Shown one piece after another: positions 29,683-62,863 of a DNA stretch of 64,000 nt. Position 1 is the stretch's first letter. Every line of letters begins with the position of its first letter. The notes under the pieces are model-generated. The model was not told where the DNA came from. It did not search any database and saw only the letters and a list, made by a program, of their open reading frames with translations. This DNA comes from a virus. The stretch lies in the IMG/VR virus record IMGVR_UViG_3300045988_127492, positions 87,921-151,920 of that record; one strand, written 5' to 3'. A program made the translations under genes and the position numbers.

Positions 29683-29914
29683 GTCTATAATTCTCCTTTC
29701 TTTTCTCTATAGTATTCCTCAAATTGTGTTCTCCATATATAATAGAGTAATACTTCAAAGCTTCTAATAATGGAACCGGATTTCCATCTAAGAAATATCC
29801 ATAACCATTACCGCATTTGTGTTGAGGATTTATAAAACTTATTTGACAGATACTGCAGTACGGAGACTTACAACAGAATTCTCTTAACTTGAAATATATT
29901 TCATATCTATCCAT
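29666..29914 (-). CDS. Cys-rich small protein
   Basis: 82 aa with CCKSPYCSIC...HKCGNG. Confidence 0.5.
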   Translation of the reverse strand: MDRYEIYFKLREFCCKSPYCSICQISFINPQHKCGNGYGYFLDGNPVPLLEALKYYSIIYGEHNLRNTIEKRKENYRHERRV

Positions 29915-30196
29915 GTCTTCTCCTATAAATTAATGTGCTTAAAGGAAGTTCTAACATCTGGCTATTCCAACAATATCTTGCTTCTTTTATATGATAAAGC
30001 TTATTTTCATGTCCTTCAAATGCGCTATGTATCGTAACTTTTTGACCACATAGTTTTTTCATTTATTCATTGAAGCCACAGATGACAATTGGCATTCCAT
30101 CCTCTTCCTGCGGCCGATATTCTTCTATTAAACGATCAAACGGTTTTACTTTATAGTGACCACCAATTTTAAGAACTTTAAGTTTACTTAGATTCA
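29907..30196 (-). pseudogene. family-A small-protein paralog split by an in-frame TAA
   Basis: MNLSKLKVLKIGGHYKVKPFDRLIEEYRPQEEDGMPIVICGFNE-TAA-MKKLCGQKVTIHS...LPLSTLIYRRRHG. Aligns end to end with 31860-32144 (..NCGFVREMKKYCGQKLRIRAI..). Confidence 0.55.
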
Positions 30197-30516
30197 TTGT
30201 TTATCCTTTCATATAGTTTTCTAAACTTTACAAAATCTTCTTGTTTACCTCCATTGTCAGGATGAGCTTTAACCATTGCATAATGAACAGCTTCTTCTAT
30301 TTCTAAAGATGGTGTAATAATTTGGGGCTTTTTAAGTTTTATTGCAAGCCTTTTATTTTCTTCACATACACATATTATATTGAAGCGTAAAGAGTCATTC
30401 TGTCTTTTTAATTTATCTACTTCCATTTTCAAATTTATGTTTCCACTTATACAAACAAACAAAATTATTAATGTTGCTACCAATACAACACTCAACCCTA
30501 CTATTTGTACTAACAT
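30184..30516 (-). CDS. membrane-anchored J-domain-like protein
   Basis: From ATG 30516 (GAGGAG RBS): N-terminal TM helix, a coiled coil, then AVHYAMVKAHPDNGGKQEDFVKFRKLYERI, which carries the HPD tripeptide. Confidence 0.6.
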   Translation of the reverse strand: MLVQIVGLSVVLVATLIILFVCISGNINLKMEVDKLKRQNDSLRFNIICVCEENKRLAIKLKKPQIITPSLEIEEAVHYAMVKAHPDNGGKQEDFVKFRKLYERINNESK

Positions 30517-31574
30517 AAATCTTTCTCCTCTTTTGTACATAAGACGATTTCTCTTCTGATCGGACATCCACCTAAGCAATCACACTGACGGCTACAGCCT
30601 CTACAAGAATTCCTGAAATGACTTCTGAAATCATCGAATACATCTGAATCCCATGCTTCCTGAATAGTGTGTTCATTAAGATCAACTGCCCACTTAAGTT
30701 CCTGATTATCAAAGCTACATGGCAGCATTTTCATATCTGACGTAATGTAACCAGAAAATCTTGCTCCTTCACACGGTTCCAGAGTAGAATTTAAAATCTC
30801 TTCTGTAAAATTCAACAGTCCAGGCACAGAACATGAATCAAATCCAATCTGAAATTTATAATCATGTTTATCAATCAAAGAGAAAAATTCTTTGACTCTT
30901 TCATCATCAGGAGATAAGACATTTGCCTGAGTTCCTAAGCCTACTGGTTTATGTAGCAAGAAAATCACTGCATTAATACCATCTGGAAAATCTTCACGCT
31001 GCAAATGTTCAATAGCTTCGTCAATAGAATTTCGACCAAGAACATAATGAATATTAGTAGTAACACCAGCAGCTACTAACATGTTAATTGCTTTTTCAGT
31101 ATACTCACTTCTGTACCAAGAAATAGCTACAGCGCCACAATATCCTTTGCAAAGGGCTACGATTTCATCAGTAAATCCTAAACCTGAGCTTGTAAAATTT
31201 GGTACAATCCCTTGTGAACGACAGTATTTAAGAATTTCTTCAAAGTTCTCATGCTGATCCACATCGCCTCTACCTCCAAGAGCAAACTGGAATGTTTTTC
31301 CTTTACATTCATCTACTATTCTCTTGAAATTCTCAAGGGACATATTAGGCTCCTGTGTGTGTAATCCATTCTGATAACACTGAACTCCTGACTGAATACA
31401 CAAACCAGATGCCCCATGAACGCAATGTCCCATAACACCAATATCTAACAAAGCAGGAAAATTTCTCATAAATGGTTCCTTTCCTGTTGTCAAATCATCA
31501 GACCGGATATAGAACCCTGTCTTCGGATTAAATGTTTCTACAAAGTTATTTTTCTTGTCGTAATATCTATACAT
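30510..31574 (-). CDS. radical-SAM-fold enzyme with C-terminal SPASM domain and non-canonical N-terminal Cys spacing
   Basis: C-terminal PCSF...EAWDSDVFDDFRSHFRNSCRGCSRQCDCLGGCP (SPASM pattern). GGRGD in place of the GGE SAM motif. N-terminal Cys cluster is GHCVHGASGLCIQSGVQCY, not CxxxCxxC. Confidence 0.7.
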   Translation of the reverse strand: MYRYYDKKNNFVETFNPKTGFYIRSDDLTTGKEPFMRNFPALLDIGVMGHCVHGASGLCIQSGVQCYQNGLHTQEPNMSLENFKRIVDECKGKTFQFALGGRGDVDQHENFEEILKYCRSQGIVPNFTSSGLGFTDEIVALCKGYCGAVAISWYRSEYTEKAINMLVAAGVTTNIHYVLGRNSIDEAIEHLQREDFPDGINAVIFLLHKPVGLGTQANVLSPDDERVKEFFSLIDKHDYKFQIGFDSCSVPGLLNFTEEILNSTLEPCEGARFSGYITSDMKMLPCSFDNQELKWAVDLNEHTIQEAWDSDVFDDFRSHFRNSCRGCSRQCDCLGGCPIRREIVLCTKEEKDLC

Positions 31575-31872
31575 TTTTTCTTCTCTCCTTAATCATAATT
31601 TCTAATTTCCCTGTGAATGGAATAAGCATTACTTCATCCCAAGAGAAATAAAGCAATTCTTTATCCTCATCCTCGTATCCTGTAATGGTTTCCAAATCAT
31701 ATATGTTATTAACTGGATCATATATTGCTTTAATTTTGTATATTTTCCCACAAAAGCATCGCATATCTGGGATAAAACTTGATGGTGTATTTATAGTTCC
31801 ATCAGTGACACCATACTCCTTTGCCATCTGATCCCAAGACTTAACCCTTACTTTCTGTCCTACTTCATACAT
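31567..31872 (-). CDS. family-A small protein (KVGxxVxV...W..M..E(F/Y)G...CG...L-I-x-x-R-R tail)
   Basis: MYEVGQKVRVKSWDQMAKEYG...FCGKIYKIKAI...LEIMIKERRKNV. Confidence 0.65.
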   Translation of the reverse strand: MYEVGQKVRVKSWDQMAKEYGVTDGTINTPSSFIPDMRCFCGKIYKIKAIYDPVNNIYDLETITGYEDEDKELLYFSWDEVMLIPFTGKLEIMIKERRKNV

Positions 31873-32144
31873 TCTTGCCTCCTTGTGATTAACATTGATA
31901 AGTCTCCTTTTTCAAACATCTCACTTGTAAAAGTCCATGTATCTGCAGCATTCAAATAATAATAGATGTCATCAAATTTCTGTATAGCACGTATCCGCAA
32001 CTTTTGGCCACAATATTTTTTCATTTCTCTTACAAAACCGCAATTGTTACATCGAATAACACCATAATAATTAACACCAAATTCTTTAACCATATCATCC
32101 CATTGACGAATCTGAACTATGTCTCCTACTTTGTATTGCCTCAT
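31860..32144 (-). CDS. family-A small protein
   Basis: MRQYKVGDIVQIRQWDDMVKEFG...YCGQKLRIRAI...LSMLITRRQECMK. The AGGAGG codons encoding RR form the downstream gene's SD. Confidence 0.65.
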   Translation of the reverse strand: MRQYKVGDIVQIRQWDDMVKEFGVNYYGVIRCNNCGFVREMKKYCGQKLRIRAIQKFDDIYYYLNAADTWTFTSEMFEKGDLSMLITRRQECMK

Positions 32145-32403
32145 GCAAACCTCCTATTGGCATAATCATGTCTGTAGACCATGTGAACATTCTTCCATCT
32201 TCTTCAATATCGAAAAGATCTCTATCCCAGGGCAAAACATATTTGATTGTTACTATATTTCCACAATACTTACGCATATCTCTAACAAACGAAGCTTGAC
32301 ATGATATATATTCATTGTACGATCCAGCATGTCTTAATCCAAATTCTTTTTTCATACTTTCCCATGAACGTACTCTATACTTTTGTCCTACTTTTACTTT
32401 CAT
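32095..32403 (-). CDS. family-A small protein
   Basis: MKVKVGQKYRVRSWESMKKEFG...YCGNIVTIKYV...GGLHEAIQSRRH. Confidence 0.65.
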   Translation of the reverse strand: MKVKVGQKYRVRSWESMKKEFGLRHAGSYNEYISCQASFVRDMRKYCGNIVTIKYVLPWDRDLFDIEEDGRMFTWSTDMIMPIGGLHEAIQSRRHSSDSSMG

Positions 32404-32680
32404 TTCTTACCTCAATTAAATTCATCAACCCAGGCTTAATAAGCATATTTTCAGTAAATAAATATTGCTCTCCAGTTTCTATATTCTGCCCTTTATATAC
32501 ATGGTCTTTTTTATACCAATTATCCCTTGTAATTATGCGAATATTTTTCTCGCATAAAGGCTCCATTTCAAGTAAAAATACTATTGGTCCAAAATCTAAA
32601 CATCCAAGGAATTTGCCATTAGAAGCTTTTTTAAGTTCTTCCCATCTTTTTACACGGTATACTTCTCCTATTTTTATCAT
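32375..32680 (-). CDS. family-A small protein
   Basis: MIKIGEVYRVKRWEELKKAS...LCEKNIRIITR...PGLMNLIEVRNESK. Confidence 0.6.
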   Translation of the reverse strand: MIKIGEVYRVKRWEELKKASNGKFLGCLDFGPIVFLLEMEPLCEKNIRIITRDNWYKKDHVYKGQNIETGEQYLFTENMLIKPGLMNLIEVRNESKSRTKV

Positions 32681-32688
32681 AATTTCAC

Positions 32689-33765
32689 CTACTCAATAAG
32701 CAGTACATCAACTGCATTTCTAAATTTCTTTAACAACTCCGGATTAGCACAAACAATTTTCTTTCTGGTTACTCTACTTTTTCCATGCTTGTTAATATAT
32801 CTGGTTTCTAAATTATGCCAGTTGATAGAAGAATTCATTTCTTTCATCTTCTGATAAACTTTTCTATATGTAACCATGTTTCCATTGCTCTTATCTTTAT
32901 ATTTTTCTGCTAAAGGAATAATAATAGAATCAGTTGCATCCTGATTACAAACTGGTTTATACTTTTCGTAGAGATCTCCTAAAGCTGCACTAAAGATAGA
33001 TCTAAGAGTATCATTTGCATAGACAACATCATAAGTGCTAAACTTACTTACCGGATTATGTTTTGCTTTGTAATCTTTTACTTCCTGATCCCAACAGATA
33101 CCATAGTTTTTATTCATATATTTATATACTGCACCCATAACTGAGCCACGGTCTGAAAATCTATCACATGTAGTAAGTGCATCAATCATCTGGTACATAT
33201 CATTTTTCCATTTCTTACAGGGGTCTTCTACCTTTTTCACTGGTAATGCGACAGCAGGAGCTTTTGATTCTAACAATACAGAAACTACTTTACCCATATC
33301 CGCATAAACTCTATCTACTTTTTCCTGTAGAATTTCAATCTGTTTACTAAAATCAGGCATCTGTAACTGAATGATATTAGAATTATCAACTTTCTTTTCT
33401 AAGAAAGCTGCTGCCAGTACATCTTTTGCTTTGAGCTGGTATGATACAAGCTTTTCAGTAATTCCTGGGGAATCTTTTTTCATTGCTGGAGTGATTGAAA
33501 TTTTAGTTAGCCATAAAGGTAAGTAATCCAGTTGTAAACATAAAACATTTTGATTCCCACCATTTGTAAGGAGGGTAAAATTTTGTACCCCCTTTGAAAT
33601 TACTGAATCTGTTTGCATTTTTCTTCTTTCATATTTGATCCGGTTGTCGTCGAGTCCAATAGCCTCACACACCCAACGAGCACCGACCCAGACATTCCCT
33701 TCTGGATCCTGTGCCGCTCTAAGAATATCTCCCTGAAAATTTATTTCTTTAGCTACTAAATCCAT
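32689..33765 (-). CDS. phage antirepressor-like protein
   Basis: N-terminal INFQGDILRAAQDPEGNVWVGARWVCEAIGL resembles P22-type antirepressor N-terminal domains. 358 aa. Confidence 0.55.
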   Translation of the reverse strand: MDLVAKEINFQGDILRAAQDPEGNVWVGARWVCEAIGLDDNRIKYERRKMQTDSVISKGVQNFTLLTNGGNQNVLCLQLDYLPLWLTKISITPAMKKDSPGITEKLVSYQLKAKDVLAAAFLEKKVDNSNIIQLQMPDFSKQIEILQEKVDRVYADMGKVVSVLLESKAPAVALPVKKVEDPCKKWKNDMYQMIDALTTCDRFSDRGSVMGAVYKYMNKNYGICWDQEVKDYKAKHNPVSKFSTYDVVYANDTLRSIFSAALGDLYEKYKPVCNQDATDSIIIPLAEKYKDKSNGNMVTYRKVYQKMKEMNSSINWHNLETRYINKHGKSRVTRKKIVCANPELLKKFRNAVDVLLIE

Positions 33766-33767
33766 AA

Positions 33768-34310
33768 TTATTCTCCTTTTAACTTACTGATTGCTAATTT
33801 AATTGCTTCTTGTTCTTTTGGAGTTTTACAAACATTGTCATCGAGATAGCTTTGAAGCAACGCGACTGCTTTCTCGTCAGTCATTTCATTTAATTTATTT
33901 CTTACAATTTCCAGAAGCTTTTCTTCATTCCCTTTCCATTCATATGCTTTACATAAATTTCCGCTACAATGTACATTTGTGATTGATAAGGCACATGAAG
34001 AACAATTTTTATCGCCACACCCAGCAACATATTTAATCATGTCCTCAATAAACTCTCTGGCAGTCATTTCTTTCTCTTCTGACCGACTCTCATCAATAAT
34101 TTCGGAAGCTGTATATAAATTATGATGATAACCGGTGGCAACTGTTCCATCACTACGAAAACGAAGTACATCTGGAAATTTCTGTCCTTCAAAAACTCTT
34201 AATTCTCCTCCTGTAACCCATTTGTATCCCTGTTTCCTTGCAATTTCAAAGAACTTTTCACATTCTTCTCTTGTATTTACTCTTACATAAATATTTCTTA
34301 AATCAATCAT
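33768..34310 (-). CDS. family-C (MIDLR) domain protein with Cys-rich C-terminal extension
   Basis: MIDLRNIYVRVNTREECEKFFEIARKQGYKWVTGG...FPDVLRF matches 34727-35002 and 34995-35276. Confidence 0.6.
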   Translation of the reverse strand: MIDLRNIYVRVNTREECEKFFEIARKQGYKWVTGGELRVFEGQKFPDVLRFRSDGTVATGYHHNLYTASEIIDESRSEEKEMTAREFIEDMIKYVAGCGDKNCSSCALSITNVHCSGNLCKAYEWKGNEEKLLEIVRNKLNEMTDEKAVALLQSYLDDNVCKTPKEQEAIKLAISKLKGE

Positions 34311-34333
34311 ACTGTTTTATCTCCTCTTTATCA

Positions 34334-34708
34334 TTATTCAAGTACTGGTTTTAATGGACATGCTTCAGGAATTGTAGAGTGTTCTTTCTTTTTTAATATT
34401 TCGATATATTCATGTAATAAATTACAATAATATCCATTGATAAGTTTTGAAAATGGACATTCATTGCATGTATTCGGAGCGTTTATGATTATCATTTTCT
34501 TGTTTGTTTTCTCACCTTTTGATAATCGCACTAACAATCCCTGTTCTTCTAAGTCCTCATAATCGGCAAGTTTTTCAATAGCTTTTCCAACAGGACACGC
34601 CCAGCAACCTGAAAATGTATAATCATCACAGAAACATTTACAAGCTGTATCTCCGACTTCTGCCAAAAGAGTGTTTTCATCTTCTATTCTCTTTGTTAAT
34701 CTCTCCAT
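34334..34708 (-). CDS. Cys-rich hypothetical protein
   Basis: 124 aa with several Cys pairs (CKCFCDD, CWACPVG, CNECPF). Confidence 0.55.
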   Translation of the reverse strand: MERLTKRIEDENTLLAEVGDTACKCFCDDYTFSGCWACPVGKAIEKLADYEDLEEQGLLVRLSKGEKTNKKMIIINAPNTCNECPFSKLINGYYCNLLHEYIEILKKKEHSTIPEACPLKPVLE

Positions 34709-34726
34709 CTACTTCACCTCAAAAAT

Positions 34727-35002
34727 TTACATCTCCGAAACATCTTCCCTTTTTAAAATCAAACCTCTTAATCCAAGTATATCTTTACACTGATAATCTC
34801 GTGGATAATATTGATAAGCCGTAGCATTATAATGTACACTATATTCTTCATCAAAACGCAATCTAGTCGGGAACCGACAATAAACATGATCTAAAGAAAC
34901 ACTATTCGCCCAATAGAATCCTTGTCTCTTCGCTACTACAGCTATTGCCTTGTACTCAACTTCATTATTCACTAAAACAGTACATTTTCTTAAATCAATC
35001 AT
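34727..35002 (-). CDS. family-C small protein with L-I-L-x-R tail
   Basis: MIDLRKCTVLVNNEVEYKAIAVVAKRQGFYWAN...FPTRLRF...LRGLILKREDVSEM. Confidence 0.6.
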   Translation of the reverse strand: MIDLRKCTVLVNNEVEYKAIAVVAKRQGFYWANSVSLDHVYCRFPTRLRFDEEYSVHYNATAYQYYPRDYQCKDILGLRGLILKREDVSEM

Positions 35003-35276
35003 TAGTTCTTCCCTTTTGTCTAATTAAAATAAGTTTTCGTACACCTTTTATTAGAACCATACAGTTTGGATAGTCACGCGGCTGGCAACCTATCCATGCT
35101 CCATAATATGTACAATGATTTCTCTTAAATTCTAATCTAGTTGGGAATTCACACATAATATTATTTAAAGAACTTCCACTAGCCCATTCAAAGCCTTGCT
35201 TTATAGCCATTTTAGTTATAGCTCTGTACTCTTTTTCATTGTTAATCTTTACAGTACAATCTCTAAGGTCAATCAT
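34995..35276 (-). CDS. family-C small protein with L-I-L-x-R tail
   Basis: MIDLRDCTVKINNEKEYRAITKMAIKQGFEWAS...FPTRLEF...VRKLILIRQKGRTND (from the internal ATG). Confidence 0.6.
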   Translation of the reverse strand: MIDLRDCTVKINNEKEYRAITKMAIKQGFEWASGSSLNNIMCEFPTRLEFKRNHCTYYGAWIGCQPRDYPNCMVLIKGVRKLILIRQKGRTND

Positions 35277-35413
35277 TTCCATCCCCATCCTTTCAAAGTA
35301 AGCATCTTTTTCAGGTTCTTACATTTAATGAAACTTGGTGTATATTCTTTTGTCTCTTCACAATATCCAAACCATTTACCTGATACATCCTTTTGAATAA
35401 TATATACTTTCAT
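35273..35413 (-). CDS. 46-aa small protein (below the ORF-track cutoff)
   Basis: MKVYIIQKDVSGKWFGYCEETKEYTPSFIKCKNLKKMLTLKGWGWK. ATGA overlaps at both ends fill an otherwise empty 120-nt gap. Confidence 0.5.
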   Translation of the reverse strand: MKVYIIQKDVSGKWFGYCEETKEYTPSFIKCKNLKKMLTLKGWGWK

Positions 35414-35703
35414 TGCTGATTCTCCTTCCTAAGTTTTATAATATTGTTTAATCCTGATGGAGAACGTAGCATAGCGTTGTTAAAGTACCATTCGATTCCA
35501 TGTCCATCTATTTTTATGAAGTACTCATCTGCTGTACCATCCGTTATAGCAACAATCTTACCTAATTTTCCACGATATTTTGCCATAGAAGTATTAAAAA
35601 GCAATGTTTCATATCCACAAATTGGTTTATGTTCATATACATAAAGATTATTGATAATCAAATCCTCTCTAACAATTACCTTGTCTCCAATCTTATATCT
35701 CAT
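35410..35703 (-). CDS. family-A small protein
   Basis: MRYKIGDKVIVRED...MAKYRGKLGKIVAI...PSGLNNIIKLRKENQQ. Confidence 0.65.
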   Translation of the reverse strand: MRYKIGDKVIVREDLIINNLYVYEHKPICGYETLLFNTSMAKYRGKLGKIVAITDGTADEYFIKIDGHGIEWYFNNAMLRSPSGLNNIIKLRKENQQ

Positions 35704-35923
35704 AATTTTCCTTTCTGGCTTCTATCAGTCTACTTAGACTTCCTACCGGAATAAGTGATGATCTATACCAGCATCCATCTGGAACCCCAATTAGATTATA
35801 ACCATTAAGACTCTTTCTACCAATCCTATAAACTTTTCCGAGATATTTTACCCCTATCTCACGAACTGCTAAGTTACGTTTTATACGAACCCAGTCTCCT
35901 ACTTTATATTCTCTCTTCTGCAT
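35693..35923 (-). CDS. family-A-like small protein (short form)
   Basis: MQKREYKVGDWVRIKRN...VGSLSRLIEARKENYEI. Confidence 0.6.
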   Translation of the reverse strand: MQKREYKVGDWVRIKRNLAVREIGVKYLGKVYRIGRKSLNGYNLIGVPDGCWYRSSLIPVGSLSRLIEARKENYEI

Positions 35924-36183
35924 ATCAAACCTCCTAAGCTATTAGCTGGCAATAACATGGCATCGTTAAATACCCACATGTTTTGTTCTACTTCTAAAGA
36001 TAATTCATAAAACTCTCCTTCATTATCAATTGAAGCTTTTGTTATTTTATATTCTCTCCCGCAAAATTTTTCCATTTGATGAGCAAACCATAATTTTCTA
36101 CTTGATGAATTTGAGTAGGGATATTCATTTCCTCCAATTAAATCTGTTCGAACTCTAACTCTATCCCCAACTTTATATCTCAT
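35899..36183 (-). CDS. family-A small protein
   Basis: MRYKVGDRVRVRTD...MEKFCGREYKITKA...NSLGGLICRRENIK. Confidence 0.65.
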   Translation of the reverse strand: MRYKVGDRVRVRTDLIGGNEYPYSNSSSRKLWFAHQMEKFCGREYKITKASIDNEGEFYELSLEVEQNMWVFNDAMLLPANSLGGLICRRENIK

Positions 36184-36428
36184 GTTCGTTTTCTCCTCCT
36201 ATCAATCAGTACAGTTAATCCTTTGTAAGGGATAAATTCGTCTGCTGGAAATACATAACCTCTAAGTTCTTCAAACATATAAGCTTCAAACGTATAAGCT
36301 TCTATCCCAGAAGTTAAACTTTTAATTAATCTTATAGTATATATATTTCCTAACAACCGTTCTCTATGGATACCCCATATCTTAAGAGGTGCATTAGTTT
36401 TAAGGATTACTTTGTCTCCTGGCCTCAT
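36180..36428 (-). CDS. family-A-like small protein
   Basis: MRPGDKVILKTN...YKGLTVLIDRRRKRT. Confidence 0.6.
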   Translation of the reverse strand: MRPGDKVILKTNAPLKIWGIHRERLLGNIYTIRLIKSLTSGIEAYTFEAYMFEELRGYVFPADEFIPYKGLTVLIDRRRKRT

Positions 36429-36642
36429 ATTGCCTCCTTTTGTGAATTGCAGAAGATAATGTGTCTTTTATAGGGATCAACATATCTATATCAAATATAT
36501 ATTTTGATTCTTCCACTAAACAGGAACCATAGTCATATATACTTTGTATGGTCAAAATTCTTCTTTGTACGTCTTTCACAGGAATCCCAAATACAGTCCC
36601 AGATAATCTAGGATCAACTATCACTTTATCTCCAACCTTCAT
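36400..36642 (-). CDS. family-A-like small protein
   Basis: MKVGDKVIVDPRL...KDTLSSAIHKRRQYE from the internal ATG 36642. Confidence 0.6.
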   Translation of the reverse strand: MKVGDKVIVDPRLSGTVFGIPVKDVQRRILTIQSIYDYGSCLVEESKYIFDIDMLIPIKDTLSSAIHKRRQYEARRQSNP

Positions 36643-36643
36643 G

Positions 36644-36799
36644 TTATTTCTCCAGTATAAAATCAAGTACTTCTACAATACTCATACCTGATATATCTAA
36701 TAGTTTCATTTCCTTTGAAGCATACTGCACAATACAAATCCCGTCCTTGATTGTACAGCTTGTTATGCCTCTCTTTTTTAATAACTTGTTCAGCTCCAT
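36644..36799 (-). CDS. 51-aa small protein (below the ORF-track cutoff)
   Basis: MELNKLLKKRGITSCTIKDGICIVQYASKEMKLLDISGMSIVEVLDFILEK, preceded by AAGGAG. Its stop lies 1 nt before the 36642 start. Confidence 0.5.
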   Translation of the reverse strand: MELNKLLKKRGITSCTIKDGICIVQYASKEMKLLDISGMSIVEVLDFILEK

Positions 36800-40706: not shown

Positions 40707-40735
40707 ATTATAAACCATTTTGTAAAACCTGTCAA
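40707..40735 (-). promoter_or_regulatory. consensus sigma-A promoter TTGACA-N17-TATAAT
   Basis: Minus strand reads TTGACA ggttttacaaaatggtt TATAAT, ~30 nt upstream of the 40677 start. Confidence 0.8.
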
Positions 40736-40764: not shown

Positions 40765-41607
40765 TTAAGAAATTTTTCTTCCTCTTTCATTAAACATTTT
40801 TGCTTCTCCGATAGATACCAGATAATCCTGCATGTAGAGAGCTAAACTCATACCTGGCCTCTCTGGATAGGCGGCTAATCCTTTAGCTCTGAGTGTACTT
40901 GGCTCAGTTTCTCTCATAATAGGAACAAGTTTAAACAAACCAACTGAACCATAGTAGGTATAAATAGTATATAAGGCATGTAATACATATTTGCTTAAAC
41001 CATTAATTTCCATTGTATAGCCAGCTCTATAACAAGTACCAACAATTGCTTCTAATCCAATATATCCTGAAGATCTAGAAATATTGTAGGCTAAATCATA
41101 AGAGCCAATTGCACCTGCACTCTGGTTTCCTTTGTAGTTACTAATTGTTAAGTTGTATTCATCAATTACTTTCTGTATAGCGGTACATACAGGGTCATTT
41201 AATACTAATCCTGCTTTGTGCTGCTGCATTTTACTTACTTTCTCTGTACAATTTGACTGACGTACAAAAATTGAAGCCTCATATTTTCTTCTCTCTTCCG
41301 GATCAGTTGGTGCTGTAGTGATAACCACACACTCAAGTGCATCTAAAATTCCTTCTGATGCACAACATCTTCCATTGCCGTCTACAATAGAGAACGTTCC
41401 TTCTTCCGGATGCGGCACTACTAACAGCGGATCCATAAGAGTGTGATCAAATTCTTTATGCAGTTTTGCAATTTTCTTTGATCTACCTGCTTCTAACCGC
41501 TGATATGCTGGATCAACGGATAACAGCTCTCTTGGGATTACCGCTAAGTGCTTGCTTCCTGATACTAAAAGGTTGTTCATAATTGTATTAAATAATACGT
41601 TGTTCAT
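40765..41607 (-). CDS. ParB/Srx-like N-terminal-domain protein
   Basis: LLSVDPAYQR...IVDGNGRCCA (ParB-like nuclease/NTPase fold motifs). Start moved to ATG 41607. Confidence 0.6.
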   Translation of the reverse strand: MNNVLFNTIMNNLLVSGSKHLAVIPRELLSVDPAYQRLEAGRSKKIAKLHKEFDHTLMDPLLVVPHPEEGTFSIVDGNGRCCASEGILDALECVVITTAPTDPEERRKYEASIFVRQSNCTEKVSKMQQHKAGLVLNDPVCTAIQKVIDEYNLTISNYKGNQSAGAIGSYDLAYNISRSSGYIGLEAIVGTCYRAGYTMEINGLSKYVLHALYTIYTYYGSVGLFKLVPIMRETEPSTLRAKGLAAYPERPGMSLALYMQDYLVSIGEAKMFNERGRKIS

Positions 41608-41681
41608 TGCTTCTTTTCCTCTTTTCTTAAATTTATATAATAAAAAAGAGCTGTTTCCACAGCTCTGATTTACTTTCTTGT

Positions 41682-41915
41682 TTACTGATTGCATTCTACT
41701 AAATTAGTAAGATACTCAATACCATGCCCACAAAATGCTGTCAACACTTCATCGAGTACATTGTACTGTTCTTCTGTTTCACAGAGTTCTAATGCCTGGA
41801 GAACTCCGTAACCTCTCTCATACTCACTGCTGTTCTGCAGTTCCTTAGTGAGCACGTCTCCTAAGATTTCTGTTGCGTAATCAACAGAGAATAATCTTTC
41901 TTTTGCTGTTTTCAT
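41682..41915 (-). CDS. hypothetical small protein
   Basis: Start ATG 41915, preceded by AAGGAGG and overlapping the upstream stop (ATGA). Confidence 0.55.
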   Translation of the reverse strand: MKTAKERLFSVDYATEILGDVLTKELQNSSEYERGYGVLQALELCETEEQYNVLDEVLTAFCGHGIEYLTNLVECNQ

Positions 41916-42235
41916 CTTGAAAACCTCCTTGATATAATTAATTCTTTGAGATTCTTTGGTTCTCTTGTCCAAATTAAATCTTTGTCTTTGTAGTCCATTT
42001 TGTATGTAAGACTATCCACGGTAGACTTGTATAATGCTATTATTGAATATACAGGATTACCTTCAGAGTTCAAATTTTCTTTGTAACTATTGCTTGTCAT
42101 AAATCCACTAGAATTAATAAAGCAAAAGTCTTGACTACCATAGTTTTTAGTCTCACAATTGGTAAGAACAAGATATTTCCCACATGGCATAACAGCTGTC
42201 ATGCCAGACCGGAGTTTCTTTCTTAAATCAACCAT
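41912..42235 (-). CDS. small protein with L-I-x-x-R-R tail
   Basis: Ends KNLKELIISRRFSR. The AGG AGG (RR) codons are the SD of 41682-41915. Confidence 0.55.
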   Translation of the reverse strand: MVDLRKKLRSGMTAVMPCGKYLVLTNCETKNYGSQDFCFINSSGFMTSNSYKENLNSEGNPVYSIIALYKSTVDSLTYKMDYKDKDLIWTREPKNLKELIISRRFSR

Positions 42236-42431
42236 TTTGTCTCCTCTCTATCAGTCCACGTAGGCGTAGAATAGAAATTAAATCTTGATCGTTAGTCCAG
42301 TGTAATTGGTTATTTTTACGATAATGGATCAAATAAGGTGAATCAAGTAATGGATCTTTATAAATATATACTACTTTTCCAATACCATAAAGTCGATGAC
42401 AGACTATATCATCTATTTTTATCTTGTGCAC
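42228..42431 (-). CDS. family-B small protein (Tudor-like H-x-x-(F/Y)-G-x-G-K-V motif plus L-I-x-x-R-R tail)
   Basis: GTG start. IVCHRLYGIGKVVYIY ... LRGLIERRQNG. Confidence 0.65.
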   Translation of the reverse strand: MHKIKIDDIVCHRLYGIGKVVYIYKDPLLDSPYLIHYRKNNQLHWTNDQDLISILRLRGLIERRQNG

Positions 42432-42651
42432 TTCTTCTCCTTTCTATTAGACCGTACAACGATATTGAAATAAAAGTAAGTGTACTTTTAAAACACCAGT
42501 AATAATGACAGTCTGAACCTCTCCCAAATCCATCATGTAGTATCTTATTTTCTTTATAAAAATAAATCAAATAAAGCGCAGGACTAATCCTAATATCTAC
42601 AATTTTTCCAATACCAAATTCTTCTCGCCATACAATATCACCTATTTGCAT
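42409..42651 (-). CDS. family-B small protein
   Basis: MQIGDIVWREEFGIGKIVDIR ... LYGLIERRRSAQDKNR. GAAAGGAGA (ERR) serves as the SD for the next gene's GTG. Confidence 0.65.
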   Translation of the reverse strand: MQIGDIVWREEFGIGKIVDIRISPALYLIYFYKENKILHDGFGRGSDCHYYWCFKSTLTFISISLYGLIERRRSAQDKNR

Positions 42652-42872
42652 TGCTGTCTCCTCTTTATAATACGTCCTAAGGTATTTTTATTTATTAATA
42701 TATGTCCAACTTCATGAGGCCAAGCCCAATATATGTGTCTACTTTTGTCAAAGATGAATGTCTCGTTTGCCTTGTAGAAGTATATTTCATAAAAAGAACC
42801 GTCGTACCCTATAACTTTTCCAACTCCACATTGGGGATGACATACTATTCCGCCTATCCATCTTTGTCTCAT
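42642..42872 (-). CDS. family-B small protein
   Basis: IVCHPQCGVGKVIGYDG ... TLGRIIKRRQQCK. Confidence 0.65.
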   Translation of the reverse strand: MRQRWIGGIVCHPQCGVGKVIGYDGSFYEIYFYKANETFIFDKSRHIYWAWPHEVGHILINKNTLGRIIKRRQQCK

Positions 42873-43126
42873 ATCTTTGCCTTTCTGATTTCAATCAAAG
42901 CTTTTAATGAATTATCATCACAGAAAAAACACTGTAATTCTTTTTTGCTGAACCACCATCCATGGTTATTTTTACAAGATCCAGGTATAGCGGCTCCGTC
43001 ATGTAGATCTTGATGTGCCTTGAAAAAGTAAACTAAATAATTAAGATCATCAAAGTGTTCTTCATACTTAATAATTTTACCTATACCATAAATCGGATGG
43101 TGTATTAATTTATTGAAATCTCCCAT
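42869..43126 (-). CDS. family-B small protein
   Basis: LIHHPIYGIGKIIKYEE ... HDGAAIPGSCKNNHGWWFS ... LKALIEIRKAKI. Confidence 0.65.
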   Translation of the reverse strand: MGDFNKLIHHPIYGIGKIIKYEEHFDDLNYLVYFFKAHQDLHDGAAIPGSCKNNHGWWFSKKELQCFFCDDNSLKALIEIRKAKI

Positions 43127-43410
43127 TCTTTATCACTTTCCTTTCCATGTGGTATATAATCTACATATATACATATCTTTTTTGATTCGCGTCTCTTTTC
43201 TATAAGCAACCCTAAAGGTGAAGTTTTCATATCTTTGATTTGACATGGACTAAACCACCAACCATGATTATCTTCACATGCACCAGGCTCTATTGCACCA
43301 TCATGCAAATCTTCATCTTCTTTGAAAAAATAAACAAGCTCACTTCCAGGGCGTACTCGTATTACTTTCCCTATTCCAAAATGTGGGTGTCTGACATAGT
43401 TTCCTATCAT
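43105..43410 (-). CDS. family-B small protein
   Basis: YVRHPHFGIGKVIRVRPG ... HDGAIEPGACEDNHGWWFS ... LGLLIEKRRESKK plus a 24-aa extra tail. Confidence 0.65.
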   Translation of the reverse strand: MIGNYVRHPHFGIGKVIRVRPGSELVYFFKEDEDLHDGAIEPGACEDNHGWWFSPCQIKDMKTSPLGLLIEKRRESKKICIYVDYIPHGKESDKEWEISIN

Positions 43411-43643
43411 TTGCCTTGCCTCTTTTCTATAAAATGTCTCAATGGTTTCTTATGCAGAAACTTAATCTCTTGTTTCGTATAAATCATACAATTAGGCATG
43501 TGTTTCCCATCGCCATCCAGTACATGAAAAGTCGCTTCATTTTGCTTGCAAACTTGTACAGCATAGGGGTAAATACATTTATAAAGATAACATTTGAATT
43601 TTCCCAACCCAAATTTAGGTTCCCATACATATATGTTCTGCAT
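43407..43643 (-). CDS. family-B small protein
   Basis: YVWEPKFGLGKFKCY ... PLRHFIEKRQGK. Confidence 0.6.
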   Translation of the reverse strand: MQNIYVWEPKFGLGKFKCYLYKCIYPYAVQVCKQNEATFHVLDGDGKHMPNCMIYTKQEIKFLHKKPLRHFIEKRQGK

Positions 43644-43645
43644 AA

Positions 43646-43888
43646 TTATCCCTTCTTTCTCTTGGTTATCAAATCAATTAATGGTCTTTTGCGTAAATAT
43701 ACGAATTCACCTTTTCTATAGGCCTGCGCATTAACTACTGTTCTTCCTTTATATTCGCCAGTATAAAGGAAATAACCATTTTTATAATGTTCTACCACAT
43801 ACCTGCGACTTTGATAAGCTATCGGATCATAGAAACTTAACTTGCCGAATCCATCAAGAGTTTTTACATAGATGTGTCTCATTTCCAT
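43646..43888 (-). CDS. family-B-like small protein
   Basis: YVKTLDGFGKLSFYD ... PLIDLITKRKKG. Confidence 0.6.
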   Translation of the reverse strand: MEMRHIYVKTLDGFGKLSFYDPIAYQSRRYVVEHYKNGYFLYTGEYKGRTVVNAQAYRKGEFVYLRKRPLIDLITKRKKG

Positions 43889-44067
43889 TCTCCTTTTCTG
43901 CGCAAGATTGCTTCATAAAGAGTATTGTAAACTACGAATGGCTGCAATACCTCTTCTGAAAATTCAAGGACACTATCGTAATGTAAAAAATCCACAAGAC
44001 ATTTACCTTCTTTTATTTTTTCCACTGCGCATCCTGTTCTTCCTACTTTTGTGTATATTATTTTCAT
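43879..44067 (-). CDS. family-B-like small protein (most divergent, first of the array)
   Basis: From ATG 44067 (GGGAGG RBS): MKIIYTKVGRTGCAVEKI ... LYEAILRRKGEWK. Confidence 0.55.
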   Translation of the reverse strand: MKIIYTKVGRTGCAVEKIKEGKCLVDFLHYDSVLEFSEEVLQPFVVYNTLYEAILRRKGEWK

Positions 44068-44109
44068 GTTTACCTCCCGAATGAATAGTAGCAAACATAC
44101 GTTCGGATG

Positions 44110-44334
44110 TCAAGTATCTATATAACAGAAACTTCCGGTTCCTGTATCCACAGTGCAGCAAGCATGTTCATATTTCATGATCAAACGATTGAATTTCTCT
44201 TCTGACATTTTTGTTGTGACCTTAAAAGGATGTGCCCAAGGTGAATCCACTGGCATTCTATTAGGAAGTAAATATACGGGCGTTCCCTTGGAAAGTTCTT
44301 TCTGCGCTTCTCTTCTAGTTACTTTCTTTAACAT
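44110..44334 (-). CDS. hypothetical small protein
   Basis: Internal ATG 44334 used (MLKKVTRREAQKELSKG...). The track's 5' extension lacks an RBS. Confidence 0.5.
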   Translation of the reverse strand: MLKKVTRREAQKELSKGTPVYLLPNRMPVDSPWAHPFKVTTKMSEEKFNRLIMKYEHACCTVDTGTGSFCYIDT

Positions 44335-46495: not shown

Positions 46496-46669
46496 TTATA
46501 ATAACCCGTTCCTTCTAAGGATTGCTCTCGCTAATTGCTCATTAATTTCTTTATGTCTTGGTACAGTTTCCCTTTGGTTACCTCGGACATAAATGTCGTG
46601 ACCCGCCCCGTGACGTTCAAAGACGAAACCACCATTTTCTAATCTTTTAACAAGATCCTTTTGCTTCAT
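46496..46669 (-). CDS. hicA: HicA-family mRNA interferase toxin
   Basis: From ATG 46669 (AAAGGAG RBS): MKQKDLVKRLENGGFVFERHGAGHDIYVRGNQRETVPRHKEINEQLARAILR. Confidence 0.75.
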   Translation of the reverse strand: MKQKDLVKRLENGGFVFERHGAGHDIYVRGNQRETVPRHKEINEQLARAILRRNGLL

Positions 46670-46706
46670 CTTTGGTGACCACTCCTTTCTATCTTGTTTG
46701 GTTATT

Positions 46707-46749
46707 ATTATACACACTTTTTACACAATGTCAATAGTTATTGTGTAAT
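46707..46749 (-). promoter_or_regulatory. sigma-A promoter TTGACA-N16-TATAAT with the -35 box centred in a 9-bp inverted repeat (TTACACAAT / ATTGTGTAA)
   Basis: Minus strand reads TTGACA ttgtgtaaaaagtgtg TATAAT. The perfect inverted repeat flanks the -35 box and is a candidate HicB operator. Confidence 0.7.
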
Positions 46750-53978: not shown

Positions 53979-55625
53979 ATGATTACAATAGCAAAGCAGA
54001 AAAAATGTAAAAGATACTTATTCAAGCTCCACAGTGAACGTCTTCGTAGGTCACGCTGGAAGCTAGAATATCCATTAGAGGAAGCTCTAAATACAGAAGA
54101 CATTATTTCTCTGTCAGATAGCCAGATTCTCAGGTTCATAGATGAAATGAACGGTGCCACCAGTGAAGCCAGAGAAGAAGAAGCTTCTTATATAAAGAAA
54201 GAAATCAAACGTCTCAAAAAATCTGATTCTTCTAAGAAAGATACTCTCATAGCAAATCTCTATAAAAGATTCTATAATCTTCAGTTTGTCCCAGATTACA
54301 TGTGTTTAATCATTGATAAGATGTCCGACTATGACAGAGCCAATAAAGGCTTTTCTATCAACGGAATTAAATATCACAGACTCTTAGGCACCAACGGGGG
54401 TGTGAAAAATTCTACCATCGTTTATGTCTCTGAGAGATTATACCCTCAGATCTATGAACGTCTCTGCTGCGGAAGAAACATGGAACAAAAATTTGTGCCA
54501 GCTAAACTTGAAGCATATCAGGCACTGATCTGTTCCGGTAGCATCCCAGTGAGTATGCCAAAAGGGGTCATAGTTGTCCCAGACTGTATCACTCATTTCA
54601 GAGAAGATATCATTCGTGTAGATGACTCCCAGTCAGATGAGCCAATCGTAGAATTTCTCAAGGATCAAGAAATAGAACTTACGGAATCAGACGGTTACGG
54701 AATCATGCTCCCATCACTCTCCTACCGTTGGGCTAGAGAACTTGATGAAGAAGAGGACTTTTTATCTGGCTGTAACCTCAGAGGACTCCCATGGACAAAA
54801 GGTATGGTATTCACAATGGATTACTTAGCTTTCGGAGAATCTGTAGCGAAAAACTTCTATATAAAAGATGCTTGGGGCGATCTGAGAGACATCAGAGAAT
54901 CTGAATTAATCATCACTACTTCTATGCTCAAACTCTGGGACTCCTACTCTTCTTTCGAAGATTACTGGTCCAATGTAGAAAAATATCATTATCAGATATC
55001 TATAGCTAAGACTGCTCCTGCAAGACTTGATGAGTACAGAAGCACAAATTACCAGTTCCTGCAGAATTACCACCTTACACCGGAAGAAGTAACTGAGTTA
55101 GTCCGTCCGACAGTAGAAGAAATTCAAGAAATCCTCGGATTAGACTACAGGAAGTCACTCCTGTTCCTGAGAGGAACTAATCTTACGGAAGATTCCTACA
55201 TTGATGAGGAACCGTATATTAATGCTCTTATGATAGAGCCACAGATGATCAACGATCCTTATATCAGAGATAGAATCTACAATATGATTAAGAAGAAGAT
55301 CAGGCAAGCTAAGATTGGTGTTCTCAAAGTAAGGGGTAACTTTGCCATCATTGGTGGGGATCCGTATAGTCTGATGCAGAGTATCTTTGATCTGCCAGTA
55401 ACTGGATTACTCCACTCAGGTGAATGTTGGCATAAACATTGGCTCGATCGAGGAGTCAGTGAAGTATGCTGCTTCAGAGCACCTATGACAAGTAAGTACA
55501 ATGTGCGCAAACTTAAAGTAGTAGGTACTCCTGATATGACTTACTGGTATAGATATATAAACACATGCATGTTGTTAAACTCATGGGATAGTACTAAAGA
55601 AGCTCTCAACGGAGCTGATTGTGAT
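53979..55625 (+). CDS. YonO / cellular-RdRP-like single-subunit RNA polymerase, exon 1
   Basis: SDGYGIMLPSLS and RAPMTSKYNVRKLKVV resemble the RdRP motifs SDG-x-G-x-(I/M)S and R-N-P-x6-V-R-V-L-x-A-V. The exon ends ...LNGADCD at a U. Confidence 0.75.
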
Positions 55626-62571: not shown

Positions 62572-62618
62572 TTATACATATTGAATTGCTGGCCTAGAGA
62601 ATTCTAGGTTGGCAGTTT

Positions 62619-62691: not shown

Positions 62692-62698
62692 TTGGTAT

Positions 62699-62734: not shown

Positions 62735-62784
62735 CGTAAAATCATTTTTTTTCATAGGAGAGCTAGAACTCTCCTCCTTTCTTT

Positions 62785-62857: not shown

Positions 62858-62863
62858 TCATTT

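What the first reader, a model, noticed from the sequence alone, without database searches (positions are those of the whole stretch)
42228..44094. Eight-gene tandem array of small PcrA/UvrD-C-terminal-Tudor-like (DUF3553-like) proteins
Eight consecutive, overlapping 62-101-aa ORFs each start with a variant of V-x-H-x-x-(F/Y)-G-x-G-K-(V/I):
- CHRLYGIGKVV
- WREEFGIGKIV
- CHPQCGVGKVI
- IHHPIYGIGKII
- VRHPHFGIGKVI
- WEPKFGLGKF
- KTLDGFGKL
- KVGRTGCAV

The motif is followed by a (Y/F)-F-x-K segment. This is the signature of the small Tudor/SH3-like domain found at the C-terminus of UvrD/PcrA helicases, in DUF3553 proteins, and (as GDxVVHxxHGxG) in CarD/Mfd RNAP-interacting domains. In those proteins the domain binds the RNA polymerase beta subunit.

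A phage that carries its own non-canonical RNAP and also eight diverged copies of a host-RNAP-docking module is unusual. The copies could compete with PcrA, Mfd or CarD for host RNAP, or be a diversified binder set. Two members (42869, 43105) share an extra HDGAxxPGxCxxNHGWWFS insert.
Basis: partly seen in the sequence, partly recalled or inferred. Interest (0 to 1): 0.7.

Follow-up and report, generated by a model that had tools for sequence, protein, structure and literature searches.

The report
Phage array of Tudor-like miniproteins
A large gut phage of the Clostridium phage c-st/SPbeta type carries seven, possibly eight, back-to-back genes for about 75-residue proteins whose fold resembles the small domain that bacterial PcrA/UvrD helicases use to dock onto RNA polymerase. 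What they bind is unknown.

Summary
The ORFs are real and sit exactly where reported.

- **Family membership.** Seven of the eight (m1-m7, 42228-43888, minus strand) form one paralogous family. The eighth (m8) cannot be shown to belong.
- **Genes, not noise.** They overlap or abut, and each has a Shine-Dalgarno site inside the upstream gene's tail. Four orthologue groups have dN/dS of 0.23-0.36. All 36 related viral contigs carry the array, with 3-6 copies against 7 here.
- **Tudor reading.** It holds, but only transitively. The window proteins give sub-threshold Pfam hits. Their profile finds multi-repeat relatives (E down to 8e-18). Those relatives pass Pfam's PcrA_UvrD_tudor cut-off and match the last 50 residues of NCBIfam PcrA and UvrD.
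- **Structure.** An AlphaFold model (pLDDT above 90 over residues 1-60) returns UvrD/PcrA Tudor domains as five of the six best PDB matches, at weak E-values.
- **Limits of the similarity.** Only strands 1-3 align. The second half is a family-specific LHDG...C..HGWW element followed by a C-terminal helix.
- **Not supported.** DUF3553 is not matched. CarD/Mfd similarity is sub-threshold.
- **Untested.** RNA polymerase binding has not been examined.
- **Wider context.** At least 12 other small beta-barrel genes nearby share the same C-terminal L..LI..RR tail. Its basic residues are encoded by the next gene's ribosome-binding site.

The parts
43646..43882 (-). m7, 78 aa, from the second ATG (the ORF list starts it at 43888). 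First gene of the conserved m7-m6-m5 core. It has lost the His/aromatic and HDG/HGWW signatures.
   Evidence: (E 5e-22). The gene caller on the source contig also gives 78 aa. Its start forms an ATGA overlap with the m8 stop.
43407..43643 (-). m6, 78 aa. Second core gene.
   Evidence: E 1.9e-7 with the m1-m5 HMM; 3e-24.
43105..43410 (-). m5, 101 aa. Third core gene and the best-conserved type. It has the full LHDGAIEPGACEDNHGWWF element. The tail LLIEKRR lies at residues 68-74 and is followed by a 27-residue disordered extension that runs to the m4 start.
   Evidence: AlphaFold pLDDT above 90 for residues 1-60, below 50 for 84-92 and 97-99; 6e-34.
42869..43126 (-). m4, 85 aa. Lineage-specific extra copy that keeps the full HDG...HGWW element.
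   Evidence: (50% identical to m5, E 1e-21).
42642..42872 (-). m3, 76 aa. Extra copy with the HDG element eroded (FIFD...RHIYWAW). The gene caller on the source contig did not call it.
   Evidence: 7e-18. Near-identical protein P0011 is found in other assemblies.
42409..42651 (-). m2, 80 aa. Belongs to the 'm2-like' type that is present in 0-3 copies at the 3' end of the array in related phages.
   Evidence: (3e-21).
42228..42431 (-). m1, 67 aa, GTG start. Shortest copy, with about 19 residues deleted, including the HDG...WW element. Found only in this genome.
   Evidence: SD GAAAGGAG 6 nt upstream; 2e-9; hhalign probability 97.7%.
43879..44067 (-). m8, 62 aa from ATG 44067 (the ORF list extends it to TTG 44094). 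Same size, strand, position and tail (AILRRKG) as the others. Membership of the family is not demonstrable.
   Evidence: orthologues sit directly upstream of the array in 5 related loci; only 2 clusters among 5.8 billion proteins; in-register hhalign at 16-18% probability.
44085..44113 (-). Promoter-like site, TTGACA-17-TACTAT with an upstream TG, directly ahead of m8.
   Evidence: 10 of 12 matches. Consensus match only.
41647..41666 (-). First terminator-like hairpin with a T-run downstream of the array on the coding strand. It defines a probable unit of about 2.4 kb and ten genes.
41912..42235 (-). 107-aa gene overlapping the m1 stop by 8 nt. It has a different N-terminal part but the same C-terminal tail (LKELIISRR).
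   Evidence: It aligns with the family only over the tail.
46707..46734 (-). Perfect sigma-70/sigma-A consensus promoter (TTGACA-16-TATAAT) upstream of the region. A second one lies at 40707-40735 (-), downstream of it.
   Evidence: 2 found, 0.12 expected.
29907..36666 (-). Twelve further small genes (51-102 aa) with the same C-terminal tail. Nine form a second paralogous family that begins M-x-Y-K-V-G-D-x-V-x-V: 31567-32680 (4 genes) and 35410-36666 (5 genes). Two are MIDLR-type genes (34727-35288). One lies at 29907-30062.

Best explanation
**What the genes are.** The array is a translationally coupled operon in the accessory region of a large phage or phage-plasmid of Clostridia, related to Clostridium phage c-st and SPbeta. 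It is probably transcribed by the host RNA polymerase.

Each gene encodes a stand-alone miniature beta-barrel. Its first three strands are homologous to the C-terminal Tudor domain of PcrA/UvrD helicases. The barrel is completed by a family-specific LHDG...C..HGWW element, which may bind a metal, and by a C-terminal helix (L..LI..RR).

The purine-rich end of that helix is encoded by the Shine-Dalgarno site of the next gene. Tail and ribosome-binding site are therefore a single dual-use sequence.

**How it most likely works (inferred).** The proteins act as free protein-protein interaction modules that bind host proteins. The target suggested by homology is the TGE beta-hairpin 'helicase interaction motif' on the RNA polymerase beta subunit (SI1 insertion) and on UvrB. 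A free Tudor domain bound there would compete with PcrA/UvrD.

The conserved m7-m6-m5 core and the variable distal copies have diverged on the presumed binding face. They probably bind different partners.

**Shown and not shown.** Gene reality, paralogy, fold, the link to PcrA/UvrD Tudor domains, operon architecture and copy-number variation are shown. Any binding partner is not.
For: **Real genes**
- The ORFs have SD sites inside the upstream tails, with ATGA or 8-23 nt overlaps.
- dN/dS is 0.23-0.36 in the four orthologue groups tested.
- The array is present on all 36 related IMG/VR contigs, always tandem and on one strand. The core order m7-m6-m5 is fixed, followed by 0-3 m2-like copies.

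**Fold**
- AlphaFold2 of m5 with a 95-sequence alignment gives mean pLDDT 80.9, above 90 for residues 1-60. It predicts strands at 5-8, 12-20, 23-28 and 50-53, and helices at 55-59 and 65-79.
- Foldseek against the PDB ranks UvrD/PcrA Tudor domains 1-4 and 6: 7egs_B, 7egt_B (probability 0.99, TM 0.67 on the target), 6yi2, 5dma and 9dqs (rmsd 1.0 over 32 columns).
- A model of the neighbouring second family returns generic SH3 and chromo barrels, and no UvrD domain appears among the 50 matches listed. The UvrD result is therefore not what any small barrel gives.

**Homology chain**
- 18 of 95 family members hit CarD_TRCF_RID and 12 of 95 hit PcrA_UvrD_tudor at E below 1.

**Function of the PcrA Tudor domain**
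- It binds RNA polymerase and UvrB through the TGE hairpin (PMC5397179, PMC8318588).

**Host-type promoters**
- Two perfect sigma-70 consensus sites flank the region, against 0.12 expected.
Against: - No window protein reaches any curated family threshold.
- The clade-only profile has no significant PDB hit. 9dqs scores E 1.3.
- All Foldseek E-values are 0.1 or weaker.
- Only strands 1-3 align. The part of PcrA that carries K712 and L714, both essential for RNA polymerase binding, has no counterpart.
- The His equivalent to H681 is Asp in most m5-type orthologues.
- m6 and m7, the most conserved array positions, lack both the His and the aromatic residue.
- No homologue exists in 50,697 deposited phage genomes, so no experimental handle is available.
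- The second small-barrel family with the same tail suggests a broader logic in which RNA polymerase docking is not the common theme.
Confidence: 0.4

Rival explanations
1. The proteins are small nucleic-acid-binding proteins (DNA or RNA) rather than protein-binding decoys. A chromo/Tudor-like barrel plus a basic C-terminal helix would coat or regulate phage or host nucleic acid.
For: - Five of the seven members have pI 9.0-10.0 and a net charge of +3 to +11.
- Distant relatives give weak hits to YccV/HspQ, a hemimethylated-DNA-binding SH3-like family.
- The second family's model matches PWWP-ssDNA complexes, chromo barrels and KOW-type ribosomal proteins.
Against: - The isolated PcrA C-terminal domain binds neither single- nor double-stranded DNA (PMC5397179).
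- Much of the positive charge sits in the last 6-10 residues. There the codons are dictated by the purine-rich SD of the next gene.
- m4 and m5 are neutral or acidic.
Confidence: 0.2
2. The proteins are anti-defence or superinfection-related accessory proteins. Each paralogue would neutralise a different host or competitor defence protein, unrelated to RNA polymerase.
For: - Copy number varies from 3 to 7 between close relatives, with a variable distal end.
- The array sits in a block of small genes next to HicA/HicB, Bro-N anti-repressor-like and ParB-like genes.
- The paralogues are divergent at 24-50% identity.
Against: - No similarity to any PADLOC model.
- PHROG matches are to families of unknown function only.
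- Variable copy number is also compatible with neutral gain and loss.
Confidence: 0.25
3. The ORFs are chance or decaying reading frames. The shared motifs would reflect a repeated DNA element, such as a ribosome-binding site or promoter, rather than proteins.
For: - The K/R-R-R part of the tail is encoded by GAAAGGAG-type SD sequences.
- The gene caller skipped m1 and m3 on the source contig.
- m1 has lost about 19 residues and is unique to this genome.
Against: - dN/dS is 0.23-0.36.
- Leu codons of the tail vary synonymously (CTA, TTG, TTA, CTT) while the residue is kept.
- About 150 homologous proteins exist, and 88 clusters at 50% identity were found in an exhaustive search.
- The structure is predicted with confidence.
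- DNA repeats inside the array are only 60-79% identical.
Confidence: 0.03

Closest known systems
C-terminal Tudor domain of PcrA/UvrD helicases (Pfam PF21196; PDB 5DMA, 6YI2, 7EGS, 7EGT, 9DQS)
   Same: - Small beta-barrel that begins (V/I)-G-D-x-V-x-H-x-x-(Y/F/W)-G-x-G-x-(V/I).
- Strands 1-3 align at sequence level through intermediates.
- It gives the best structural matches.
- The His and aromatic residues equivalent to H681 and W684 are kept in several members.
   Different: - Stand-alone proteins of about 75 aa, not the end of a roughly 725-aa helicase.
- The region carrying K712 and L714 is replaced by LHDG...C..HGWW.
- An extra C-terminal helix is present.
- Window members score below the Pfam cut-off.
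- No evidence of RNA polymerase or UvrB binding.
CarD/CdnL N-terminal domain and Mfd RNA polymerase-interacting domain (Pfam PF02559)
   Same: - Tudor-like barrel.
- Similar first hairpin.
- Sub-threshold HMM hits in 18 of 95 family members.
   Different: - PDB CarD hits are not significant (E about 1.4).
- Only profile positions 1-39 of 57 ever match.
- CarD and Mfd bind the beta1 lobe by strand addition, a different site from PcrA.
Uncharacterised phage family phrog_22041, and multi-repeat proteins such as P0122 and P0131
   Same: - Same domain, including the LHDG...HGWWC signature (E 1e-14 to 1e-20 against phrog_22041).
- These are the true nearest relatives.
   Different: - There the domain is repeated 2-4 times inside one polypeptide and fused to other domains.
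- Here each copy is a separate gene with its own tail helix and ribosome-binding site.
The second small beta-barrel family of the same phage (nine genes at 31567-32680 and 35410-36666; weak Mind bomb SH3 repeat, PF18346, similarity)
   Same: - Same size, strand and tandem overlapping layout.
- Identical C-terminal L..LI..RR helix overlapping the next ribosome-binding site.
- Same phage clade.
   Different: - Different barrel: KVGDxVxV...W.F...ML.P.
- Structural matches are generic SH3, chromo and PWWP domains, not UvrD.
DUF3553 (Pfam PF12073)
   Different: Never matched in any Pfam scan here, up to E = 10 for the eight window proteins and E = 1 for 95 family members.

Membership tests
PcrA_UvrD_tudor (PF21196) | Score at or above the Pfam gathering cut-off (23.9 bits) | tested here: not met
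   Only m5 scores against the model, at 12.5 bits and E 0.13. The best E-value over 95 family members is 0.002. Distant relatives P0122, P0131 and P0137 do pass, at 54, 40 and 35 bits.
PcrA_UvrD_tudor (PF21196) | Five-stranded Tudor-like barrel that superposes on solved PcrA/UvrD C-terminal domains | tested here: inconclusive
   The AlphaFold model is confident over residues 1-60. UvrD/PcrA Tudor domains take ranks 1-4 and 6 in the PDB search, but with E 0.1-0.3 and TM on the target of 0.37-0.67.
PcrA_UvrD_tudor (PF21196) | Sequence homology to the helicase C-terminal domain | tested here: met
   Met transitively. The family profile reaches P0122 at 7.6e-18. P0122 matches NCBIfam PcrA positions 674-710 at 5e-12. 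The combined profile A4 hits 7egs_B at 1.4e-4 and 5dma at 2.8e-3, over profile positions 2-33 of 67 only.
PcrA_UvrD_tudor (PF21196) | Residues required for RNA polymerase binding (H681, W684, K712, L714 of G. stearothermophilus PcrA) | tested here: inconclusive
   His is present in m1, m3, m4 and m5. The aromatic residue is present in m1, m2, m4, m5 and m6. The K712/L714 segment is not alignable.
PcrA_UvrD_tudor (PF21196) | Position at the C-terminus of an SF1 helicase | tested here: not met
   All members are stand-alone proteins of 67-101 aa.
PcrA_UvrD_tudor (PF21196) | Binds the TGE hairpin of RpoB and UvrB | not testable with these tools
   Needs pull-down, two-hybrid or complex prediction. 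The host is not identified.
CarD_TRCF_RID (PF02559) | Score at or above the gathering cut-off (23 bits) and similarity to solved CarD or Mfd RNA polymerase-interacting domains | tested here: not met
   The best window score is 15.1 bits. PDB CarD chains score E 1.4-1.5 with profile A4. CdnL ranks 26th in Foldseek with probability 0.11.
DUF3553 (PF12073) | Any HMM match | tested here: not met
   Absent.
Tandem paralogue array (the observation itself) | Each of the eight ORFs is homologous to the others | tested here: not met
   Seven are homologous. m8 is not detectable and reaches only 16-18% hhalign probability.

The most novel reading that the evidence does not exclude
The phage carries a natural library of more than 20 translationally coupled miniature beta-barrel binders. 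They fall into two barrel families and share one C-terminal helix. The Tudor-type array mimics the free PcrA/UvrD C-terminal domain. It would occupy the helicase-interaction hairpin on host RNA polymerase beta and on UvrB. That would uncouple host transcription from PcrA-dependent R-loop and conflict resolution while the phage switches to its own YonO-like polymerase. The divergent paralogues would extend the same scaffold to other host targets.
Probability: 0.12. Interest if true: 0.75.

Novelty: new variant of a known kind. Interest (0 to 1): 0.45.

Why it matters
In bacteria, the PcrA/UvrD Tudor domain recruits a helicase to RNA polymerase and to UvrB. No stand-alone viral version was found in the literature searched here.

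If these miniproteins bind the same hairpin, they would be a new class of phage host-takeover factor. They would also be ready-made, roughly 8-kDa competitive probes for the PcrA-RNA polymerase interaction in Firmicutes.

Two points stand regardless of target:
- The locus defines an uncharacterised domain family, a Tudor-like barrel with an LHDG...HGWW element, that no Pfam model covers.
- It shows a clear case of dual coding, in which a conserved C-terminal helix and the next gene's ribosome-binding site are the same nucleotides across about 20 genes.

Tried and rejected
- **DNA similarity to deposited phages.** The 5-kb region has no blastn match in 50,697 records.
- **tblastn of m5 against the same collection.** Only chance hits to Klebsiella phage portal genes, at E 0.03.
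- **PHROGs, NCBIfam and PADLOC on the eight proteins.** Nothing below E 0.19.
- **PDB sequence search.** The 7-sequence profile and the 95-sequence clade profile gave nothing significant. The Tudor link appeared only after distant relatives were added.
- **BFVD fold search.** Only uncharacterised phage proteins, with E of 0.016 or weaker.
- **The search for related loci.** A scan of GTDB genomes with P0049 found no relative, so the host stays unidentified.
- **Cluster look-up.** The three family clusters with NCBI copies carry no names or accessions.
- **dN/dS against the window copies.** Orthologues are only 42-65% identical, so this failed. I computed it among the orthologues instead.
- **The tail as a pure by-product of the ribosome-binding site.** Rejected for the L..LI part, because codons vary synonymously, m5 keeps the motif 27 codons away from the next start, and AlphaFold predicts a helix. 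Accepted for the K/R-R-R part.
- **m8 as a member.** Not rejected outright, but not demonstrable.
Full report
**1. The observation**

The window has low G+C (30-40%). Nearly all genes up to about 51 kb lie on the minus strand.

Eight consecutive minus-strand ORFs of 67-101 aa occupy 42228-44094, exactly as reported. I call them m1 (42228-42431) to m8 (43879-44094).

The core motif G[IVLF]GK[IVLF] occurs eight times in the six-frame translation of the whole window. Seven of these lie in the array, against 0.92 expected from shuffles.

Paralogy is well supported for seven ORFs:
- m1-m5 match each other by BLASTP at E from 1e-21 to 1e-4, and m6 matches m7 at 1.6e-5.
- An HMM of m1-m5 finds m6 (1.9e-7) and m7 (0.013) as the next-best of 965 ORFs.
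- A 95-sequence profile scores all seven at 2e-9 to 6e-34.

m8 is never found. It has only one other cluster of relatives among 5.8 billion proteins. Its orthologues sit directly upstream of the array in five related phages. They read MKIIYTTLIGLGYV...KYTVEFLH and align in register with the family at only 16-18% hhalign probability.

The array therefore has seven demonstrable members and one possible, very diverged one.

**2. Gene reality and architecture**

Likely true starts are ATG 43882 for m7 and ATG 44067 for m8, as called on the source contig.

| Junction | Arrangement |
|---|---|
| m8/m7 | ATGA overlap |
| m7/m6 | 2-nt gap |
| m6/m5 | ATGA overlap |
| m5/m4 | 22-nt overlap |
| m4/m3 | ATGA overlap |
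| m3/m2 | 10-nt overlap |
| m2/m1 | 23-nt overlap |
| m1/next gene | 8-nt overlap |

Each start is preceded by a GAAAGGAG-type Shine-Dalgarno sequence that lies inside the last codons of the upstream gene.

Signals on the coding strand:
- A promoter-like site (TTGACA-17-TACTAT with TG) lies at 44113-44085.
- The first terminator-like hairpin downstream is at 41666-41647.
- The only two perfect TTGACA-N16-18-TATAAT sites in the window lie on this strand at 46734-46707 and 40735-40707, against 0.12 expected.
- I infer transcription by the host polymerase. This is not shown.

Orthologue groups of the m2, m5, m6 and m7 types have median dN/dS of 0.36, 0.28, 0.32 and 0.23. DNA repeats within the array are only 60-79% identical, so the duplications are old.

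**3. Distribution**

The window matches ENA metagenome contig ERZ27229669:k119_71578 (152,097 bp), on which all eight array proteins are encoded at 100% identity.

About 150 homologous proteins exist, all from metagenomes and none with a Pfam domain. No deposited phage genome has a homologue.

All 36 related IMG/VR contigs carry the family as a same-strand tandem array of 3-6 copies (one end-cut fragment shows only two), against 7 here.

The order is fixed. A core m7-m6-m5 is followed by 0-3 m2-like copies, and m8 precedes the core in some contigs. m4, m3 and m1 are specific to this lineage.

Larger genes place the phage near Clostridium phage c-st, Enterocloster phages and SPbeta.

**4. What the proteins are**

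Direct Pfam scans give only sub-threshold hits, but always to bacterial RNA polymerase-associated Tudor domains: CarD_TRCF_RID, PcrA_UvrD_tudor and Tudor_1_RapA. Across 95 family members, 18 hit CarD_TRCF_RID and 12 hit PcrA_UvrD_tudor, with best E-values of 0.0035 and 0.002.

An exhaustive HMMER search of 1.84 billion representatives found 88 clusters. These include proteins with 2-4 internal repeats of the domain: P0122 (7.6e-18), P0124, P0131 and P0137.

Their consensus is fKvGDRVkHkeYGiGtI...YLVEFDkeN..LHdGnG..K..H(C/G)WWC.

Evidence linking these relatives to PcrA/UvrD:
- They pass the PF21196 gathering score at 54, 40 and 35 bits, against a cut-off of 23.9.
- P0122 matches the last 50 residues of the NCBIfam PcrA and UvrD models at 5e-12 and 1e-9.
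- P0122 matches solved UvrD1 and PcrA Tudor domains directly, at 0.0076 and 0.022.
- A profile combining m1-m5 with 51 such domains hits E. coli UvrD (7egs_B 1.4e-4, 6yi2 1.8e-4), M. smegmatis UvrD1 (9dqs 6e-4), PcrA (5dma 2.8e-3) and T. thermophilus UvrD (7egt 5.8e-3).

That match covers profile positions 2-33 of 67, which correspond to strands 1-3. The clade-only profile gives no significant PDB hit.

**5. Structure**

AlphaFold2 of m5 gives mean pLDDT 80.9, above 90 over residues 1-60.

| Element | Residues |
|---|---|
| Strands | 5-8, 12-20, 23-28, 50-53 |
| Short helix | 55-59 |
| C-terminal helix | 65-79, the PLGLLIEKRR tail |
| Low confidence (pLDDT below 50) | 84-92 and 97-99 |

Foldseek against the PDB ranks UvrD/PcrA Tudor domains 1-4 and 6. 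The E-values are only 0.1-0.3.

As a control, a model of the neighbouring second family (pLDDT 82.3) returns generic SH3, chromo, PWWP and KOW barrels. No UvrD domain appears among the 50 matches listed.

The 'extra insert' of m4 and m5 is the ancestral signature. H36 is present in 54 of 56 broad-family sequences, H49 in 42 of 56, and Cys at position 45, 50 or 53 is frequent. I note a possible metal site; this is speculation. m1 has deleted the element, and m3, m6 and m7 have eroded it.

**6. The tail**

The pattern L..[LIVMFA]I..R occurs 27 times in all six-frame ORFs of at least 45 aa. Twenty of these lie within the last 22 residues.

All twenty are in small minus-strand ORFs, in three clusters (29.9-32.7, 34.7-36.7 and 41.9-44.1 kb) plus one at 46.5 kb. 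Uniform placement would give 6.5.

The K/R-R-(R/Q) residues are the translation of the next gene's SD. The L..LI part is under protein-level selection:
- Leu codons vary synonymously.
- m5 keeps the motif 27 codons from the next start.
- The segment is predicted helical in both families.

Nine of the other tail-bearing genes form a second paralogous family. It has its own metagenomic relatives, and one source names a relative 'Mind bomb SH3 repeat domain'.

The simplest reading is one old lineage of barrel-plus-helix miniproteins. It has diversified in this phage clade, with the tail constrained both by helix packing and by the overlapping ribosome-binding site.

**7. Mechanism**

From the literature:
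- The PcrA/UvrD Tudor domain binds RNA polymerase. Binding requires H681, W684, K712 and L714, and the isolated domain does not bind DNA (PMC5397179).
- Its target is a TGE beta-hairpin in the SI1 insertion of RpoB. The same motif is present in UvrB, which competes with RNA polymerase for PcrA. Preventing the association raises R-loop levels (PMC8318588).

In the window proteins:
- By sequence, H681 corresponds to residue 8 of m5 and W684 to residue 11.
- His is kept in m1, m3, m4 and m5. The aromatic residue is kept in m1, m2, m4, m5 and m6.
- Most m5-type orthologues have Asp at position 8.
- The K712/L714 strand has no counterpart.

My best explanation is that these are free Tudor-type protein-binding modules expressed from a host-type promoter. 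My estimates are:

| Claim | Estimated probability |
|---|---|
| Fold and family assignment | about 0.85 |
| Binder of host or phage proteins | about 0.5 |
| Specifically the RpoB/UvrB hairpin | about 0.2 |

Rivals are nucleic-acid binding and anti-defence roles. Basic pI in five of seven members favours the first, but the charge is concentrated in the SD-encoded tail. Variable copy number and the accessory-region context favour the second.

**8. Comparison and verdict**

The proteins work like, and are distantly homologous to, the PcrA/UvrD C-terminal Tudor domain.

They fail formal membership on three counts: they score below the gathering cut-off, they are stand-alone, and their second half is replaced. 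CarD/Mfd and DUF3553 membership is not supported.

The nearest true relatives are the uncharacterised phrog_22041 and the multi-repeat phage proteins.

I rate this a new variant of a known kind. Its proposed function remains a hypothesis.

Noticed in passing
window 29907-36666 (-), plus 41912-42235 and about 46499-46720: At least 13 further small genes (51-107 aa) end in the same L..LI..(K/R)R tail as the array. Nine form a second tandem paralogue family (KVGDxVxV...W.F..ML.P), predicted to be an SH3/chromo-like barrel with a C-terminal helix. The shared tail overlaps each downstream ribosome-binding site.
   Followed up: partly
window 53979-57703 (+): The YonO-like RNA polymerase gene appears to be split. 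A 560-aa ORF is 41% identical to a Clostridium phage c-st protein and 29% identical to the roughly 835-aa SPbeta-type gene, and it ends ...NGADCDK. It is followed by an HNH endonuclease ORF (55749-56474), a Rfam group I intron (56196-56607, 50.4 bits against a threshold of 50) and a 358-aa ORF (56627-57703). This suggests an intron-interrupted polymerase gene.
   Followed up: partly
window 9000-9087 (-): RAGATH-27 RNA motif (Rfam RF03100, 89 bits against a threshold of 76) between tRNA genes.
   Followed up: no
window 8595-10867 (-) and 62618-63237 (+): Eight tRNA genes in two clusters: Leu-TAG, Met-CAT twice and Gln-TTG; then Glu-TTC, Asp-GTC, Ser-TGA and Tyr-GTA.
   Followed up: no
window 3268-4734 (-) and 13733-15769 (-): Genes for nicotinamide phosphoribosyltransferase and NAD-dependent DNA ligase, which suggests the phage supports its own NAD supply for ligation.
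   Followed up: no
window 43105-43190 (-), C-terminus of m5: m5 reads on for 27 residues past its LIEKRR tail until it overlaps the m4 start. AlphaFold predicts most of this extension at low confidence. Orthologues in phages that lack m4 and m3 stop right after the tail. This looks like the scar of the insertion that added m4 and m3.
   Followed up: partly
family-wide (m5 residues H8, H36, C45, H49; broad family H36, H49, C50, C53): A conserved His/Cys set in the LHDG...HGWW element could form a metal site. It is absent from PcrA/UvrD Tudor domains, and only m4, m5 and partly m2 keep it.
   Followed up: no
L001 6975-7625 (source contig; corresponds roughly to window 46.5-47.2 kb): A HicA toxin / HicB antitoxin pair lies about 2.5 kb upstream of the array. 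A ParB-like gene (40765-41694) lies downstream, consistent with a c-st-like plasmid-prophage lifestyle.
   Followed up: no
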